A DNA stretch of 31,645 bases. Source: a virus (lineage: Duplodnaviria > Heunggongvirae > Uroviricota > Caudoviricetes). Made by a program: the position numbers. The stretch is from IMG/VR virus record IMGVR_UViG_3300045988_013781; one strand, written 5' to 3'. Position 1 is the stretch's first letter. Every line of letters begins with the position of its first letter. Of the stretch, positions 18,001 to 24,000 are shown piece after piece.

Positions 18001-21000
18001 AAATATAATAGATAAAATTTCATACATCTCAGATAACAGCACATGGAAAACTGTTATGTTTTATCCATGCTTATCTGTAATTACTATCTGCTGCCTATTA
18101 CCATGGGTAAACAATATCATTAACGTATGGCAAGCAAAGCCTCTTGATAATAATGACTCAATCGAAAATCACCGGAAGGCAAGAAAAATACAACGTGAAA
18201 CACGGCTACAGAGATTGCTGGCTAAAAAAGACATTACTTACGAAAAAGTAAAAACAGGCGCTGAAAAAAACATTCAAGACATGAAAGAGGAAATAATTCT
18301 TTCAAAAGACAGAATGGGACAACTCACATCTGAATTGAAAGAGAGGGAGACAGAACTGCGCGCAGCACAAGCTCGTATTTTAGAATTATCTAAGGTTATT
18401 CATGAAACAACATCTAAACTAGAAAATCTAGAAAAAGCCCACAAAAATTTAAAAAACGAATATGAGTCCTATAAGAAAAACATTCCTTTGGCAACAAATA
18501 ATACAATTGCTAATGGGTTTGTAGGTCTAAAATCATTACAAGACCTTAATGAGTCCGTAAAGAAACTTGGCGTTACTGGAATTAACAATCCAGAAATCAG
18601 TACATTATTGAATAATCCTCTAGTAAATATAAATGGTGGTTTAAATTCCACCCATCAAAGAAAATCAAAAACACAAAAGTAAAAATCATTCAAATGGGTC
18701 ATAGTCTGTTATAGCCCTGCCCTGCTGCTGCCGTGGGTCATTAGTTTTCTTGGCTACCGGGAACGCAAACGTCAGCAGTAGCGCATCGCCTTTACCCGGC
18801 GAACGCCCAAGCCGCTCCTTGATATCTTCCTTCGGTTCGATAACGATTTTACCGTCCACTCGAACTTTGTACTCTGCCGCCGACAGGTCGTCTGCTGTTT
18901 CCTGGTCATCCAGCATGCCGCCCAGCCTCAGCCATGTCTTGCATGAATTGAACATCTCCCCACGCTTGTTGAGCATCTGCGGGTCAGTAGACGCGCCACC
19001 GAACGGAACAAGTTGCCATGTACGACCCCATCCGTCACCGATTGACTTCAGACCGGTTCCGTAACCGAAGTCGATGAACACCGCGTCAGCCTGATACTGG
19101 TCTTCAAAGTCAGCGATACGCTTCGCCATAATCAGATCGTCGGTAGTCTTGTTGCCAGTCCACAGCACCTTACTGTGTAGCCCCTGCCGCAGGTATATCA
19201 CCGCGTCATCAACGCCTGAATATGCCGGGTCAACACCGATTATCACCGGAGCATGCGCCACCTGCGCAGCGGTTACCACCCGTTTCATTGCCTCATCAGT
19301 AAGACCGGTAGGGATAAACTGCAATTCAGATGCATCAGGGAATATGCCGCGCACACGGATTTTAACGAAGTCGCTGTCTTCCCCGTAGTCATCAACCCAT
19401 TTCTGCAACTGCTGTTTGTTAGTGCCTTCCACCGTCCGGCTGTCAATCTGCGCAGTTTTCCAGCGGTGTTTATATTTGCGGAAACATTCGCGGAAACGCC
19501 CGGTGTTACGTGTAGGGTTTCCGAATGCCACCCAGATAATCTCAGTGTCTTCGTCCGTCAGCGCACCCTCTGCTACCTCCCACACCAGATCGGCAATGTT
19601 GGATGCTTCGTCGAATACCACGATGATGCGTTTGCGCTCGTTGTGTAGTCCGGCGAATGCCTCAGTGTTGTGCTCAGACCAGGGGATTGCGTCAGCTCGC
19701 CACCGCTTGTCGTGCCCAGGGTCATTGCTGTACATCGCGGTAGCGGTACAGGTAAACCAGTCTTTCGTGATAGCAAGGTTCGACCACTTGATAATTTCCG
19801 GCCAGGTCTTCGTTCGTAGCTGGTTGTCGGTGTTGGCGGTCACCACGACCTTACAATCCTCGCAAGTGGACATGCCCCAGTTGATCAGCATTGAGATGAA
19901 TGCGGATTTACCAATACCGTGACCCGAAGCGCGTGCCAGCATAAGCGGCTGATAGCGCGTCTCTGGATTCTGCAGGTGATCACGTATCTCTCGGAACGCA
20001 TCAGCCTGCCACTGACGTGGGCCGGTAGCATGTGCCAGTTCAGTCCCCTCTTCCCCCCACGGGAACGCATAGAGGGCATAGCCAAGCGGATCGTGAGTGA
20101 ACCCTGCAATATCCTCGATCAACTGCTCTTCAGGAGATAACGCTGTATCTGTCACTGATTACCATCCTGACGTTCTTTGAGTCGCTTCCTGGCTGCCGCT
20201 ATGCGATCAGCAATTGTCACATTCACATTAACATCCAGGCGTTCTTTGAATGCGTTGACGTCGACGTGCTTACCAATCAGTTCGAGGTTCTTCACCTTGT
20301 CAGGCCATTTAATTTTTTTGAGGATTGTCTCTATCGAATCCTCGTTCATGTTCATGATGGTCGATGACAGATCAAAGCCACTAAGCGTAGTGCGCCAGAT
20401 TTTCGGCCACTCGCGGATTGGCTTAAGGCTCCCATCGTCGTTGAGGATATCAATCACGTCCATCTGGTCGATCTCCACCAGGCGCATGAGAACGTAATCG
20501 GCACTGACGCGCATTCGTTTGTTGCGCTCCTCCATCAACTCGGCAATCCGTTTTTGAATGCGTTCATCGCGCATCATGACACTGGCTTTAACTGCCGCTG
20601 TATTTGGGGAGAATCCTGCGTTAATCGCTGCCTGAGTCTGGTTTTCAGGCGTTTTGATGTATGACTGGCAATAAGCCTCCTGCATTGCGGTTAGTGGCTT
20701 AAATTGCGTTGATTTGCGTTTATAGGTTTTAGGTTCAGCAGGCATCATAACCACCCTGGTAATTGTTACCGTTGTGGTAATAGTACCATGCAAAATAAAG
20801 CCGCCATAGTTGGCGGCAGTATTCAAAACCCATCAAATTCATCATGCATAATCTACTCGTGACATGTCACACTATTAATTTAGTTTCATGCCAGCCTTTA
20901 GTCACCCAGCATTGCGAGTCACCATTACACGGGCATGAATTAACGGGAACTTTCTCGCCGCACTTACCGCAACGTTTTCTGCTAATCGATTTTATACGCC

Positions 21001-24000
21001 CGCGCACGCGTGCATCATCCTGGCGGATCAGTAACGCTATATACTCCCCAAATTCGTAAGGCGCACGCCCGGGGCGACGCGTGGCACAGTTACGCTCCAG
21101 CATTTCAATTTCCTGAGCATCAAGCACAATCTCCAGCTTACGCACACCAGATGCAGCTTGTCTGGCTCTCTGAGCGGCTTTGCGCTCTGATGCTGATTTA
21201 GCCATTCTGATTTTCCTGCATCATGAGAAATACAATCATGGCGGCTCGGAGTGGATTATTCGCATGAAAGCAAATGTTCTCGGCATTAAAAACAGCTGAC
21301 CACTCACCGCGAGATTGGTGGCAGGTTAGACTGATTTTATTATCAACAATAATAGGCCATGCATCCGATGGATTATTGCAGTAGTCAGGTAAAGGGTTTA
21401 ATGGCTCAAAAGTTGTATCAGTATTTCCGTAATACCATTTGTTGGTGTTATTCCCTGATGTTTCCGGTTTACACGCCCAAAGGCCTTTAAAAATTATGTC
21501 TCCTACCATTCTGTTAATTTCAAAATCACTTAACTGTGAATAGTCCATCACTTCACCTCCTGCGGCGGCTCTGGTAGCGGCATCCAGTGAGTTACGTCAT
21601 CCAAGATATTTCCTGATAAATACGTGAAAGCTCTATATTTTTTGTAATCAATTGGATTTACAACCCAGTTCCAATATGCTGCCACGATTTCACCTTGACT
21701 AAATGCCAGTAACATTTTGGTGTCTTCCGGCATTAGATCACTACAGCTTATCCAACCATCCGGAGTTACCGGATAGTTGCCATTTACATCGAAGTTTGGC
21801 TCTGCGTCCTGAACCAGGAGGATGTAACCATTCTTGGCCGTATCAAGTTCTAACGCCTCAGTGACGGTGCCGAAATAGCGATTACCTAAATCAGCATCAC
21901 AAGTGCTTACATCAATGGAAACTTCCATGCCTTCGATTAATTCTGCCAAGTTGTAAGCTTGGCTTACAGGTTCGGCTTCCAGTTCTGCTATGCGCTTATT
22001 TGCTGCTTCCAGCTCAACACGCAGCTTCCCTACCGTTAGCGCAATTTCCTCGTTCTCCTGGTCGCGGCGTTTGATGTATTGCTGGTTTCTTTCCCGTTCA
22101 TCCAGAAGCGCCAGCACAGTAGCCGGATTGGCTGCGGCGATGAATTCAGCATTGGCCTGCTGTTCAGTTTGGAAATCTTCATCGAAACCGCTTTCAGGAT
22201 GCGCTCCTTCAATTCTGCAAATGGGAATATATCCAGCAACTTCACGATGAATTAGCGCATCATCACCATCAAATCGGCCCTTTCCATATTCGAGCGACCA
22301 CTCACCACACGTTGCTTTTTCTGCCTTAGCACGCAGTGCCTGATAATCATCTTGCTCCCTGGTTGCCTCCTTTGCTGGGCTTTCTAACTTCTGAGTGGTT
22401 GTATCAAAATCAAACAACTTAACCACGTCATCAAACAGGACATAATCGCCATCAGAATCTTCAGTCATGTCAGCGCCACAATCCTGACCGCACGAGTCGC
22501 AACCTTCCATATCAAGCTCGTATCGCTTCAGGTTTGCGATATTTGATAAATTCAGCGCCAGTACAGCCAGGTCATAAACCTCTTCGGCGGTATACCCTGC
22601 ACCATGCCCATACATTTCAATGCGGGATATGATTTCTTCTACCCGTTGTTTTGTGATCGTCATTTTTGCTCACCACTCTGTTCTTCCAGAAAAATACGCA
22701 TAGCCTCAAGCATCTCTTCGGTGTCATACGGAGACAGCTTGTCACGCAGGATGTGTTCAATGCTGTTAATGAACTTTCGGATTGCTTTGCGTTCAATTTC
22801 AGTCAGGAAAGCATCGGTGGCTGGAATGGGCTTTTGTGGTGATATAGCAATGCGAATTGTCTCAAGGTCTGGATCTGTTTCCGCTGCTGGCACCTTGATA
22901 TAACCCATCTGCACCCCATTCATGATGAATCTGCGACGGTCATCACATATCGCCTTCAGCCCCGCATTCTCCGCCGCCAGCGCATTAGCACGCGCCAGTT
23001 GCACTTCCAGTTGCGTTGCCAAATCGCTGAGCAGCTTTGCCACACTACGCATATCAACGGCACCACATTCTGCTTTCAGTTCCGAAGCCATCTCATGCCC
23101 GGCGGCAACTAACTCTTTGATATTACTTTCCATCTTTACCCTCGTTTATCCACATAACTTATTGATTACATTGATAACTAAAAAGATCGTCGATTCAGAA
23201 CTCTTCGATGTTCCAGCCACCACCTGCTTTCTTTGGCTTAACCGTTACCCCGATGATTCGGAACGGATACTGATCTGCGGCGACTTTGGTTTTCACCCTG
23301 GCGTCGTCGGTCCAGAAACCTTTCACTTCGTGCAGTTCCATCTCGCCGGTGGCGAGCATCACAGCAAAATCTGGCGTATAGAACGTGTTGTCAGCTAACC
23401 GCAGCTTGATACCCTCGAATCGATACCATGCGATTTCCCCTGCACGTTTACGCAGCTCAAGGTGCTGGCAATACGCAGATTCTGTTTTGTTCATCTGGCC
23501 TGTTTTGAGCCGACCAAGAGCCTGTATCTGTTTTCTCATGATTTACCCCTTAGGTAATTAAAAACCACATAAGACATGAAATCAATAGACGTTAGAACAT
23601 TTTATTACCCACTAGGTAATTACGTGGGCGTAAAAAAATGCGCTATCGCGCTGGTATTACTTGATAAATCCTGCCGCCTTTCCCCGCCTGTATTCCTCCA
23701 TCAGCCACTGCGCCGGTGTTATTCCCCCAAGGGTGGCGGCGTTAGGCATGCACCCGAAACTTCGCCCTGGTGGATGGTAAACGTCTCTCCCTGTGTCCGG
23801 AGGCGTACTCATGGGTTCTGGCTTTGCCTGTATGCTGATCACCGGATCGGGTATCTGCTGTCCGGAAGCCACCTTTTTCGCCCAATCATCGAGCAGCCTG
23901 CGCGCGTGTTTCTCAACCTCAATCTCGCTAAGCTGGCGCTGATACATTGCACGGCGGGTATCACATACGACCCAGTACATAACCGGGTGCCGCCACGGGA

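What the first reader, a model, noticed from the sequence alone, without database searches (positions are those of the whole stretch)
20749..21205. No Q antiterminator or lysis cassette before the terminase; instead a terminator, an operator array and a small RHH/zinc-ribbon protein
In lambdoid genomes the replication genes are followed by the nin region, Q, PR'/tR' and the lysis genes before terS. Here the P-like gene is followed by DUF1064, Ea22-like and DUF2591-like genes and a 112-aa protein (20867-21205) with a putative ribbon-helix-helix N-terminus and a Cys4-like C-terminus. A minus-strand intrinsic terminator follows (20791-20817), then the array GGTAA-N3-TTACC-N5-GGTAA-N3-TACC, then terS. 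Late genes may therefore be controlled by direct repression or activation at this array, possibly involving the 112-aa protein, rather than Q-type antitermination. Lysis genes must lie elsewhere, probably beyond the left edge.
Basis: partly seen in the sequence, partly recalled or inferred. Interest (0 to 1): 0.7.

Follow-up and report, generated by a model that had tools for sequence, protein, structure and literature searches.

The report
Early-to-late gene boundary of an epsilon15-like prophage
This is the normal early/late gene boundary of an epsilon15-type prophage. The "operator array" is a pair of binding sites for the prophage's own repressor, and the small protein next to it most likely recognises a different, previously unnoticed 12-bp palindrome that travels with its gene in many unrelated phages.

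Summary
The window is a Uetakevirus (epsilon15/phiV10-like) prophage. It has no Q gene and no lysis genes between the replication genes and terS. A near-identical E. coli prophage carries the lysis cassette about 7 kb beyond the left edge.

The terminator (20817-20792, minus strand) is real and conserved. The "array" was parsed wrongly. Its recurring unit is TTACC-N5-GGTAA, the operator of the SPC32H-type repressor encoded at 25962-26546. There are 12 copies in the window against 0.5 expected, including the sites at OL and OR. Two of them (20780-20766 and 20762-20748) lie between the terminator and the terS start. The epsilon15 RefSeq record already annotates the equivalent site as a repressor site.

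The 112-aa protein (PHROG 536, epsilon15 gp49) has a ribbon-helix-helix fold and a Cys-rich C-terminus weakly resembling TraR. Its likely target is not the array. It is the palindrome GTGACATGTCAC (20870-20859) overlapping its own stop codon. GTGAC-N2-GTCAC accompanies this gene family in podo-, myo- and siphovirus lineages, and in Uetakeviruses it also sits just upstream of terminators.

No sigma-70-like promoter fits between the terminator and terS. I therefore favour protein-assisted read-through, which is Q-like in logic but not in family. This is inferred, not shown.

The parts
20867..21205 (-). Gene for the 112-aa ribbon-helix-helix + Cys-rich protein (PHROG 536; epsilon15 gp49 homologue). 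It is the last gene of the early-right operon.
20859..20870 (.). Perfect palindrome GTGACATGTCAC overlapping the TGA stop codon. It is the probable binding site of the 112-aa protein.
   Evidence: Single exact copy in the window against 0.035 expected. Conserved in Uetakevirus relatives. GTGAC-N2-GTCAC lies within -60..+20 nt of the stop codon in 16 of 21 protein clusters.
20841..20870 (-). Sigma-70-like match GTGACA-N18-CATGAT, whose -35 hexamer is half of the palindrome. Function uncertain.
   Evidence: 9 of 12 consensus match. Epsilon15 has GTGACA-N17-TAAATT at the same place, read. The sequence between the palindrome and the terminator is otherwise poorly conserved.
20792..20817 (-). Intrinsic terminator: 7-bp GC-rich stem, 4-nt loop, TTTATTTT tail.
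   Evidence: Conserved in six relatives. Annotated as a rho-independent terminator in epsilon15.
20766..20780 (.). Repressor operator O1, TTACC-ACAAC-GGTAA (perfect).
   Evidence: Same motif as OL and OR. The equivalent epsilon15 site 12-27 is annotated 'repressor'.
20748..20762 (.). Repressor operator O2, TTACC-AGGGT-GGTTA (one mismatch), covering the terS Shine-Dalgarno sequence and the first ATG.
   Evidence: A second site within 1 mismatch at this position in TL-2011b, epsilon15, Tyrion, 66FD and BUCT554; SPN1S has 2 mismatches and KPC3phi13.3 has none.
20152..20748 (-). terS (small terminase), the first late gene.
   Evidence: PF03592, E 1e-29. The longer TTG-started ORF from 20826 spans the terminator and a region of indels not divisible by three, so it is probably spurious.
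25962..26546 (+). Immunity repressor (SPC32H Rep type), the protein expected to bind the TTACC-N5-GGTAA operators.
   Evidence: E 4e-42 over the full length to PDB 5D50. phrog_8.
25844..25906 (.). OR region: operators at 25844-25858 and 25892-25906 between the cro-like and repressor genes. The PR-like promoter TTGTTA-17-TATTAT overlaps the first.
26604..26680 (.). OL region: operators at 26604-26618 and 26666-26680 flanking the promoter TTGACA-17-AATCAT.
17198..17212 (.). Operator in front of the next late block (gene 3 / portal).
   Evidence: Equivalent to the epsilon15 site 2931-2947 annotated 'repressor'.
160..174 (.). Operator at the left end of the window, downstream of the last virion gene.

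Best explanation
The region 21205-20746 (minus strand) is the early/late junction of an epsilon15-like (Uetakevirus) prophage. It contains two separate control systems.

(1) Lock, probability about 0.9. The immunity repressor (25962-26546, SPC32H Rep type) binds two adjacent operators, TTACC-N5-GGTAA. O1 is at 20780-20766 and O2 at 20762-20748. They lie between the terminator and terS, and O2 sits on the terS ribosome-binding site and start codon. Together with operators in front of the other late blocks, this keeps the late genes silent in the lysogen independently of PR.

(2) Key.
- Probability about 0.75: the 112-aa protein, the last product of the early-right operon, is a dimeric RHH DNA-binding protein with a Zn-binding C-terminus. 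It recognises GTGACATGTCAC (20870-20859) at the end of its own gene, not the array.
- Probability about 0.35: no usable promoter fits between the terminator and the terS ribosome-binding site, so terS transcripts must cross the terminator. I infer that the DNA-bound protein acts on RNA polymerase as it passes (or starts at) the palindrome, so that it reads through the terminator into terS. This is a Q-like logic carried out by an unrelated protein. The TraR-like C-terminus is a candidate polymerase-contact surface.

What is shown: the sequence elements, their conservation, and the gene-palindrome linkage. What is inferred: all binding and all effects on transcription.
For: Operators:
- 12 sites against 0.5 expected, located at OL, OR, an internal early promoter and in front of late blocks.
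- The same pattern occurs in epsilon15, Tyrion and SPN1S, including sites before terS, gene 3, the tailspike gene and the lysis genes.
- The epsilon15 RefSeq record labels seven of them as repressor sites.
- The repressor is homologous to SPC32H Rep.

Protein:
- PHROG 536 'transcriptional regulator'.
- RHH fold.
- Conserved Cys residues.
- TraR-like C-terminal half.
- It is the last gene before terS in eight Uetakeviruses.

Palindrome:
- Exact GTGAC-N2-GTCAC occurs 1-5 times in every genome carrying the gene, against 0.02-0.05 expected. Lambda has none.
- It overlaps or abuts the gene's stop codon in Uetakevirus, Yersinia P2-like and N15-like phages.
- This holds in 16 of 21 protein clusters from 132 IMG/VR loci. 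In one subfamily the palindrome is read as the codons V-T-G-H inside a C-terminal extension.
- In Uetakevirus-type genomes, copies sit 0-40 nt upstream of intrinsic terminators. Overall 14 of 38 unique sites do so, against 3.9% of random positions.

Need for read-through:
- No sigma-70-like site was found on the minus strand between 20800 and 20748.
- Only 43 nt separate the T-run from the ATG, and the operators fill that space.
Against: - There is no experimental data on binding or transcripts for any family member. The sequence-string search found no paper.
- N15-like phages carry a Q protein as well as this protein, and the P2-like Yersinia phage also encodes a separate small 'transcriptional regulator' where P2 carries ogr. 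The family is therefore not universally the late switch.
- In the Vibrio and N15-like phages the palindromes lie just upstream of ribosome-binding sites, without terminators.
- The window has only one palindrome, whereas epsilon15, SPN1S and ZX5 have three.
- About 12 Uetakevirus-like loci lack the palindrome.
- LexA-controlled morons can be inserted between the palindrome and the terminator. A mechanism that needs fixed spacing is therefore unlikely.
- The TraR similarity is marginal, and Foldseek against the PDB gave nothing significant.
- The promoter scan is a crude consensus test. It would miss an activator-dependent promoter.
Confidence: 0.4

Rival explanations
1. Insulator / termination helper. 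The 112-aa protein binds the palindromes at the ends of transcription units and stops or helps to stop polymerase there, as a roadblock next to terminators. This separates early, late and oppositely oriented moron transcription. Late genes would then be transcribed from their own promoters, which are repressed by the immunity repressor and which the consensus scan does not recognise.
For: Palindromes lie at the 3' ends of units, often between convergent genes and next to terminators. This includes terminators of minus-strand morons in epsilon15, SPN1S, ZX5 and PF9285. In P2-like loci, clusters of 2-3 sites lie between the converging early and portal operons. Each late block begins with a repressor operator.
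Against: No room or consensus for a promoter was found between the terminator and terS. An early protein that blocks the early-to-late junction needs a separate late promoter that has not been found. A symmetric site cannot discriminate direction.
Confidence: 0.2
2. Promoter activator. The palindrome overlaps the -35 of a weak promoter (GTGACA-N17/18-TAAATT/CATGAT), and the protein activates it like a class II activator. The terminator then acts as an attenuator or as a stabilising hairpin near the 5' end of the late mRNA.
For: A sigma-70-like match at 20870-20841. A better one is at the same place in epsilon15, whose predicted start falls at the first base of the terminator stem. In Vibrio K303 a palindrome lies 19 nt upstream of the terS start codon.
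Against: The -10 region and spacing are not conserved between the phiV10-like and epsilon15-like groups. In the window the predicted start is about 17 nt upstream of an intact terminator, so read-through is still needed. The extra palindromes after terL and gp18 are not followed by forward genes at promoter distance.
Confidence: 0.15
3. The palindrome is not the protein's site, or the protein is unrelated to late-gene control. The palindrome could be an RNA 3'-end or processing element, or a conserved module-boundary sequence at which recombination joins modules. The protein would be an accessory regulator with another target, for example the host.
For: The family coexists with Q in N15-like phages and with a separate small regulator at the ogr position in the P2-like phage. 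Morons are inserted exactly next to the palindrome. The segment 20878-20793 gives a sub-threshold match to the Hfq-binding sRNA RseX. Some family members lack the palindrome.
Against: The gene-palindrome linkage holds across lineages with 30-40% protein identity and unrelated neighbours, and even when the palindrome is inside coding sequence. As RNA it can only form a 4-5 bp stem. RHH proteins are double-stranded-DNA binders that typically recognise short palindromes (established knowledge).
Confidence: 0.15
4. One reading: the 112-aa protein itself represses or activates late genes by binding the GGTAA/TTACC array.
For: Proximity of the gene to the array. RHH proteins bind short repeats.
Against: The array motif is the same as at OL and OR next to the HTH repressor gene. 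It is found in relatives in proportion to the repressor system. The motif is absent around the homologues examined in Yersinia, Vibrio and N15-like phages, whereas the GTGAC palindrome is present.
Confidence: 0.05

Closest known systems
Salmonella phage epsilon15 (Uetakevirus) gp49, terminator 39646-39672 and repressor site 12-27 (RefSeq NC_004775.2)
   Same: Same gene order. Homologous protein (about 80% identity within the genus). Same palindrome at the stop codon, same terminator, and same operator motif before terS.
   Different: Epsilon15 has three palindrome copies, while the window has one. The spacer between palindrome and terminator differs (22 vs 42 nt). The epsilon15 annotation calls gp49 only 'transcriptional regulator' and does not mention the palindrome.
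Lambdoid Q - QBE/PR' - tR' late switch
   Same: The regulator gene is the last early gene. A DNA site for it is expected at or next to a promoter-like element. An intrinsic terminator stands between that element and the late genes.
   Different: No sequence or fold relation to any Q family. The lysis genes are not downstream. The late region also carries immunity-repressor operators. Multiple sites occur in relatives. Antitermination activity is untested.
SPC32H Rep/Ant immunity system (PDB 5D50)
   Same: The window's repressor is a full-length homologue (E 4e-42). Rep is reported to bind palindromic sites as a tetramer (PMC9638917). This fits the paired operators 62 bp apart at OL and at the internal promoter.
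   Different: The primary papers could not be read here, so I could not check the identity of the published operator sequence. The window's operator set extends into the late region.
TraR / DksA family C4 zinc-finger proteins that bind the RNA polymerase secondary channel
   Same: Residues 47-107 align with TraR residues 6-66, including CxxCGxxIP...G...C.
   Different: The match is marginal (E 0.03, hhalign 68%). No Pfam zf-dskA_traR hit and no Foldseek support. The helix that aligns to TraR's channel-inserting helix is here helix 2 of the RHH fold. The fourth Cys is in a different position.
E. coli MatP - matS
   Different: matS has a 3-nt centre (13 bp), whereas the phage site has a 2-nt centre (12 bp). 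hhalign finds no specific relation (probability 0.6%). True matS is absent from prophages (PMC3603311).

Membership tests
Lambdoid Q antiterminators (Q-lambda, Q21, Q82 families) | Sequence or fold membership in a Q family | tested here: not met
Lambdoid Q antiterminators (Q-lambda, Q21, Q82 families) | Gene immediately upstream of a promoter plus terminator that precede the late genes | tested here: inconclusive
   The terminator is present and conserved. The promoter-like site is only a 9/12 match and is poorly conserved.
Lambdoid Q antiterminators (Q-lambda, Q21, Q82 families) | Makes RNA polymerase terminator-resistant | not testable with these tools
   Needs in vitro transcription or Term-seq.
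Ribbon-helix-helix (MetJ/Arc/CopG) DNA-binding proteins | Beta-alpha-alpha fold | tested here: met
Ribbon-helix-helix (MetJ/Arc/CopG) DNA-binding proteins | Binds a short palindromic or repeated DNA site as a dimer | not testable with these tools
   Only the genomic linkage to GTGAC-N2-GTCAC is shown.
PHROG 536 ('transcriptional regulator') | Full-length profile match | tested here: met
   E 4.4e-54, residues 1-111 on profile positions 2-114 of 115.
DksA/TraR C4 zinc-finger family | Profile match with the CxxC...CxxC zinc finger preceded by a long helix | tested here: inconclusive
   hmmsearch E 0.026-0.029 to TraR and YbiI. hhalign probability 68%. No Pfam PF01258 hit. The fourth Cys is displaced.
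MatP/matS | 13-bp site GTGAC-RNY-GTCAC and MatP-type protein | tested here: not met
   The site is 12 bp, and there is no 13-bp form in the window. hhalign probability is 0.6%.
SPC32H-type Rep repressor/operator immunity system | Rep homologue, plus its operator motif repeated at the divergent early promoters | tested here: met
   E 4e-42 to 5D50. TTACC-N5-GGTAA at OL, OR and 8 further places, 12 against 0.5 expected.
Uetakevirus genome organisation | Order int - early left - repressor/cro - replication - gp49-like - terS/terL - portal...tailspike - lysis - attP | tested here: met
   98% DNA identity to vB_EcoP_ZX5 over 20100-21600. Gene-by-gene agreement with epsilon15, Tyrion, SPN1S and ZX5. 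The lysis cassette lies beyond the left edge in PF9285.

The most novel reading that the evidence does not exclude
PHROG 536 proteins are a new class of DNA-site-loaded transcription elongation regulators. They would combine an RHH domain that recognises GTGAC-N2-GTCAC with a TraR-like zinc finger that contacts RNA polymerase. In epsilon15-like phages they would replace Q. They would load onto polymerase at palindromes placed just upstream of intrinsic terminators, turning the early transcript into the late transcript, while repressor operators in front of each late block keep the prophage silent.
Probability: 0.2. Interest if true: 0.85.

Novelty: new variant of a known kind. Interest (0 to 1): 0.55.

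Why it matters
How epsilon15-like podoviruses switch on late genes is not known. This group includes phiV10, SPN1S and SPC32H, which are used as reporter and biocontrol phages, and many E. coli and Salmonella prophages. They have no Q, Ogr, Mor or C homologue and no phage RNA polymerase.

This analysis gives the question a concrete, testable form. It identifies a repressor lock on each late block. It also identifies a conserved small protein with a specific 12-bp candidate target next to the terminator that guards terS.

The gene-palindrome pair is also found in P2-like, N15-like and Vibrio phages, so its function is probably general. If the protein proves to modulate termination or elongation through a TraR-like contact, it would be a new mechanism of phage temporal control.

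If not, the result is still useful for annotation. The 'array' belongs to the immunity repressor, and the missing lysis cassette is normal for this genus.

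Tried and rejected
- **GGTAA-N3-TTACC as the repeat unit.** Only one match against 0.57 expected, so rejected in favour of TTACC-N5-GGTAA.
- **Direct family assignment of the 112-aa protein.** Pfam gave nothing meaningful. phmmer against PDB sequences gave nothing. 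Foldseek against the PDB gave nothing significant.
- **A promoter between the terminator and terS.** None appeared in the consensus scan. Hand inspection gives only GGTACT-17-AATTAC, whose start would fall inside the Shine-Dalgarno sequence.
- **The long terS ORF starting at TTG 20826.** It spans the terminator and a region with indels not divisible by three between relatives, so it is treated as spurious.
- **Known RNA families in 20600-21300.** Only a sub-threshold RseX match, 27.8 bits against a gathering score of 50.
- **The search for related loci with the whole family alignment.** It failed because no stretch was conserved enough. One single-protein scan found nothing.
- **Literature.** Kropinski 2007 (PMC2698709) and Kim & Ryu 2013 (PMC3807360) are not held. 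The ZX5 paper does not treat late regulation. No paper contains the palindrome string.
- **Terminator adjacency as a general property of the palindrome.** It holds only in Uetakevirus-type genomes, not in the Vibrio, N15-like or most P2-like loci.

Full report
**What the window is.** Megablast of 20100-21600 finds Escherichia phage vB_EcoP_ZX5 at 98.2% identity. It also finds HEMP4, TL-2011b, phiV10, Tyrion, SPN1S and epsilon15, all Uetakevirus or close to it.

The genes of interest run on the minus strand:
- integrase, 31645-30395
- a plus-strand early-left operon: PerC-like activator, AlpA-like Xis, RecT, exonuclease
- a plus-strand repressor, 25962-26546
- a cro-like gene, 25807-25577
- a DnaT-domain replication initiator and a lambda-P-like loader
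- DUF1064
- Ead/Ea22+DUF551
- NinX
- the 112-aa gene, 21205-20867
- terS and terL
- then portal, capsid and tail genes down to coordinate 1

**Checking the observation.** The terminator is a 7-bp GC-rich stem with a 4-nt loop and a TTTATTTT tail (20817-20792). It is recovered in the RNA fold. It is conserved, with the same stem, in TL-2011b, epsilon15, Tyrion, SPN1S, 66FD and KPC3phi13.3.

No ORF between the repressor and terS matches a Q family or a lysis family. That absence is the rule in this genus. In epsilon15, Tyrion, SPN1S and ZX5 the holin, endolysin and spanin genes lie after the tailspike and next to attP and int. In an integrated prophage they therefore end up at the far end from int.

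In E. coli PF9285, which is 99.8% identical over the window's left 2.5 kb, the holins, a GH19 endolysin and a DUF2514 spanin-like gene lie 6.3-8.1 kb beyond the window's left edge, next to yfgI.

**The array.** The central part, TTACC-N5-GGTAA, is strongly enriched. It has 12 sites within one mismatch against 0.50 expected, and none of 100 shuffles came close.

The sites are:
- 26604 and 26666, flanking the leftward early promoter TTGACA-17-AATCAT
- 25844 and 25892, between the repressor and cro-like genes, the first overlapping the PR-like TTGTTA-17-TATTAT
- 25507, next to a tR1-like terminator
- 23605 and 23543, flanking an internal promoter TTGATT-17-TTTAAT in front of DUF1064, with the same 62-bp geometry as at OL
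- 20766 and 20748, before terS
- 17815 and 17198, around the moron and in front of gene 3
- 160, at the left end of the window

The repressor is a full-length homologue of SPC32H Rep (PDB 5D50, E 4e-42). Rep is reported to bind palindromic sites as a tetramer (PMC9638917).

The epsilon15 RefSeq record annotates ATTACC-N5-GGTAAT sites as 'repressor, lysogeny'. It marks them at OL (three sites), before terS (12-27), before gene 3, before the tailspike gene and inside the early-right operon. My scan adds sites before the lysis cassette and at OR.

So the 'operator array' is real, it belongs to the immunity repressor, and its existence before terS is already recorded for the type phage. In the window it consists of O1 (20780-20766, perfect) and O2 (20762-20748, one mismatch). 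O2 lies on the AGGGTGG Shine-Dalgarno sequence and the first ATG of terS.

**The 112-aa protein.**
- It matches PHROG 536 over its whole length (E 4.4e-54).
- It has no Pfam family.
- It has only 152 relatives at 50% clustering in a 1.8-billion-protein library, so the family is small.
- An alignment of 56 diverse members shows a basic N-terminus (ERKxxQRxR), a strand-helix-helix core and a C-terminus with invariant C79 and C82 and nearly invariant P87, G95 and C99.
- The AlphaFold2 model is confident (pLDDT 89.9).
- A family profile searched against PDB sequences finds TraR and YbiI, which are DksA/TraR zinc-finger proteins that bind the polymerase secondary channel. E is about 0.03 over residues 49-110.
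- hhalign against F-plasmid TraR gives 68% probability.
- Foldseek gives no support.

I treat the RHH fold as established and the TraR relation as a lead.

Immediately at the stop codon lies the perfect palindrome GTGACATGTCAC (20870-20859), with the TGA inside its first half. It is conserved in all seven Uetakevirus relatives aligned, with a single-base variant in BUCT554, although the sequence after it diverges and varies in length.

Exact GTGAC-N2-GTCAC is expected 0.02-0.05 times per genome, but was found as follows:

| Genome | Exact copies |
|---|---|
| Window | 1 |
| Epsilon15, SPN1S, ZX5 | 3 each |
| Tyrion | 2, plus one across the record ends |
| Vibrio phage K303 | 3 |
| N15-like phage | 3 distinct (5 in the record, which holds a duplicated region) |
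| Yersinia P2-like phage | 1 |
| Lambda | 0 |

These are all genomes that encode a family member at 30-45% identity. In the Yersinia and N15-like phages the palindrome again overlaps the homologue's stop codon.

Among 132 IMG/VR loci recovered with four divergent family members, 16 of 21 protein clusters (80% identity) have an exact copy within -60 to +20 nt of the stop. The random expectation is about 1e-4 per locus. In one subfamily the palindrome lies inside a C-terminal extension, where it is read as Val-Thr-Gly-His. In two P2-like clusters it lies 0.5-3.4 kb downstream, in groups of two or three sites between the converging early and portal operons.

This linkage across unrelated virion types is the strongest new result. 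It makes the palindrome the probable binding site of the protein. The half-sites equal those of matS (GTGAC-RNY-GTCAC; PMC3116907). But the spacing is one base shorter and the protein is not specifically related to MatP.

**Where else the palindrome lies.**
- In epsilon15, SPN1S, Tyrion and ZX5, the additional copies lie just after terL and at the stop of the last virion gene before the tailspike. A degenerate copy lies after the spanin genes.
- In PF9285, a copy lies between two convergent moron genes.
- In these genomes the palindrome is 0-40 nt upstream of an intrinsic terminator, in the direction of the transcript being terminated. Overall 14 of 38 unique sites do so, against 3.9% of random positions.
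- In the Vibrio and N15-like phages it lies instead just upstream of ribosome-binding sites, including that of terS in K303.

**Mechanism.** Only 43 nt separate the terminator's T-run from the terS ATG, and these are filled by O1 and O2. The consensus scan finds no promoter there. Hand inspection gives only hexamers whose start site would fall inside the Shine-Dalgarno sequence. terS mRNA must therefore begin upstream of the terminator. It could come from PR, from the internal promoter at 23560-23600, or from the weak GTGACA-N18-CATGAT match that shares its -35 with the palindrome. In every case it must cross the terminator.

The last early protein, bound to a site 42 nt upstream of that terminator, is the obvious candidate to allow this. 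That is why I rank protein-assisted read-through first (about 0.35), which is Q-like in logic. The insulator/roadblock model follows at about 0.2 and simple promoter activation at about 0.15.

Against a universal late-switch role:
- The family coexists with Q in N15-like phages, and the P2-like phage also has a separate small regulator at the ogr position.
- LexA-controlled UmuD-like morons can sit between the palindrome and the terminator.
- Some loci lack the palindrome.

None of the binding or transcriptional steps has been tested. I found no paper that mentions the palindrome.

**Comparison and novelty.** The genome layout, the terminator and the repressor site before terS are already known from epsilon15. 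The protein is an annotated but uncharacterised 'transcriptional regulator'. What appears new is its RHH plus TraR-like make-up, and above all its fixed association with a 12-bp matS-like palindrome at its own stop codon and next to terminators. The late switch of this phage genus remains an open question, and this analysis makes it directly testable.

Noticed in passing
window 23540-23625 (minus strand): An internal promoter-like site TTGATT-17-TTTAAT in front of the DUF1064 gene is flanked by two perfect repressor operators 62 bp apart. This is the same geometry as at OL (26604/26666). Epsilon15, Tyrion and SPN1S have the same pair. The early-right operon therefore seems to have a second repressor-controlled promoter after the replication genes.
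   Followed up: partly
window 17100-17170, 23565-23580; L002 2990, 24753, 35955; L010 4027, 21440, 26457: A second recurrent motif, (C)ATATGTGGTT(T/A), lies 40-60 nt downstream of the repressor operators in front of gene 3, DUF1064, the lysis cassette and (weaker) the tailspike gene. It also occurs in reverse orientation inside the PL spacer. Its role is unknown. It could be part of late promoters or the site of another regulator.
   Followed up: partly
L007 4290-4350; L008 1790-1850; L146 about 4345-4400: In KPC3phi13.3, BUCT554 and one IMG/VR relative, a near-consensus LexA box (TACTGT-N8-ACAGTA) with a TTGACT promoter and a small gene (UmuD-like in BUCT554) is inserted exactly between the palindrome and the terminator/operator. 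BUCT554 then has no terminator before terS. The window keeps a short remnant of this insert (AGATT...GCATGAT).
   Followed up: partly
window 17535-17611 (+) and 17834-18682 (+): A tRNA-Arg(TCT) and a 282-aa plus-strand moron (phrog_4780, unknown function) lie between terL and gene 3. The moron's promoter-like site ATGACC-17-TATAAT (17804-17832) is overlapped by a one-mismatch repressor operator (17815-17829).
   Followed up: no
window 20793-20878 (minus strand): The segment from the palindrome to the end of the terminator gives a full-length but sub-threshold match to the Hfq-binding sRNA family RseX (27.8 bits, gathering score 50, E 0.29). This is probably chance, but the early operon's 3' UTR could yield a small RNA.
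   Followed up: no
window 25216-25428 (minus strand) and 25507-25555: A 70-aa ORF with a Cys/His-rich motif (phrog_1081, unknown function) follows a tR1-like terminator (25555-25536) and a one-mismatch operator (25507-25521) just after the cro-like gene.
   Followed up: no
window 29258-29557 (+): A PerC-like 'transcriptional activator' (phrog_868, E 6.5e-62; annotated perC in ZX5) lies in the early-left operon. It is another candidate regulator whose targets are unknown.
   Followed up: no
L148 1-11000 (E. coli PF9285, left of the window): Between the window's left edge and the tail-fibre gene there are two BRO-N antirepressor-like genes, a YafO-family toxin gene, further repressor operators (locus 7554, 7934, 9002) and one more GTGACATGTCAC palindrome (locus 10151) between convergent genes.
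   Followed up: partly
L040 4840-4935 and relatives L041-L076: In a group of P2-like prophages the palindromes form a cluster: GTGACATGGCAC, GTGACATGTCAC and a half-site, about 33-36 bp apart. The cluster follows the early-operon terminator and faces the end of the portal gene.
   Followed up: partly
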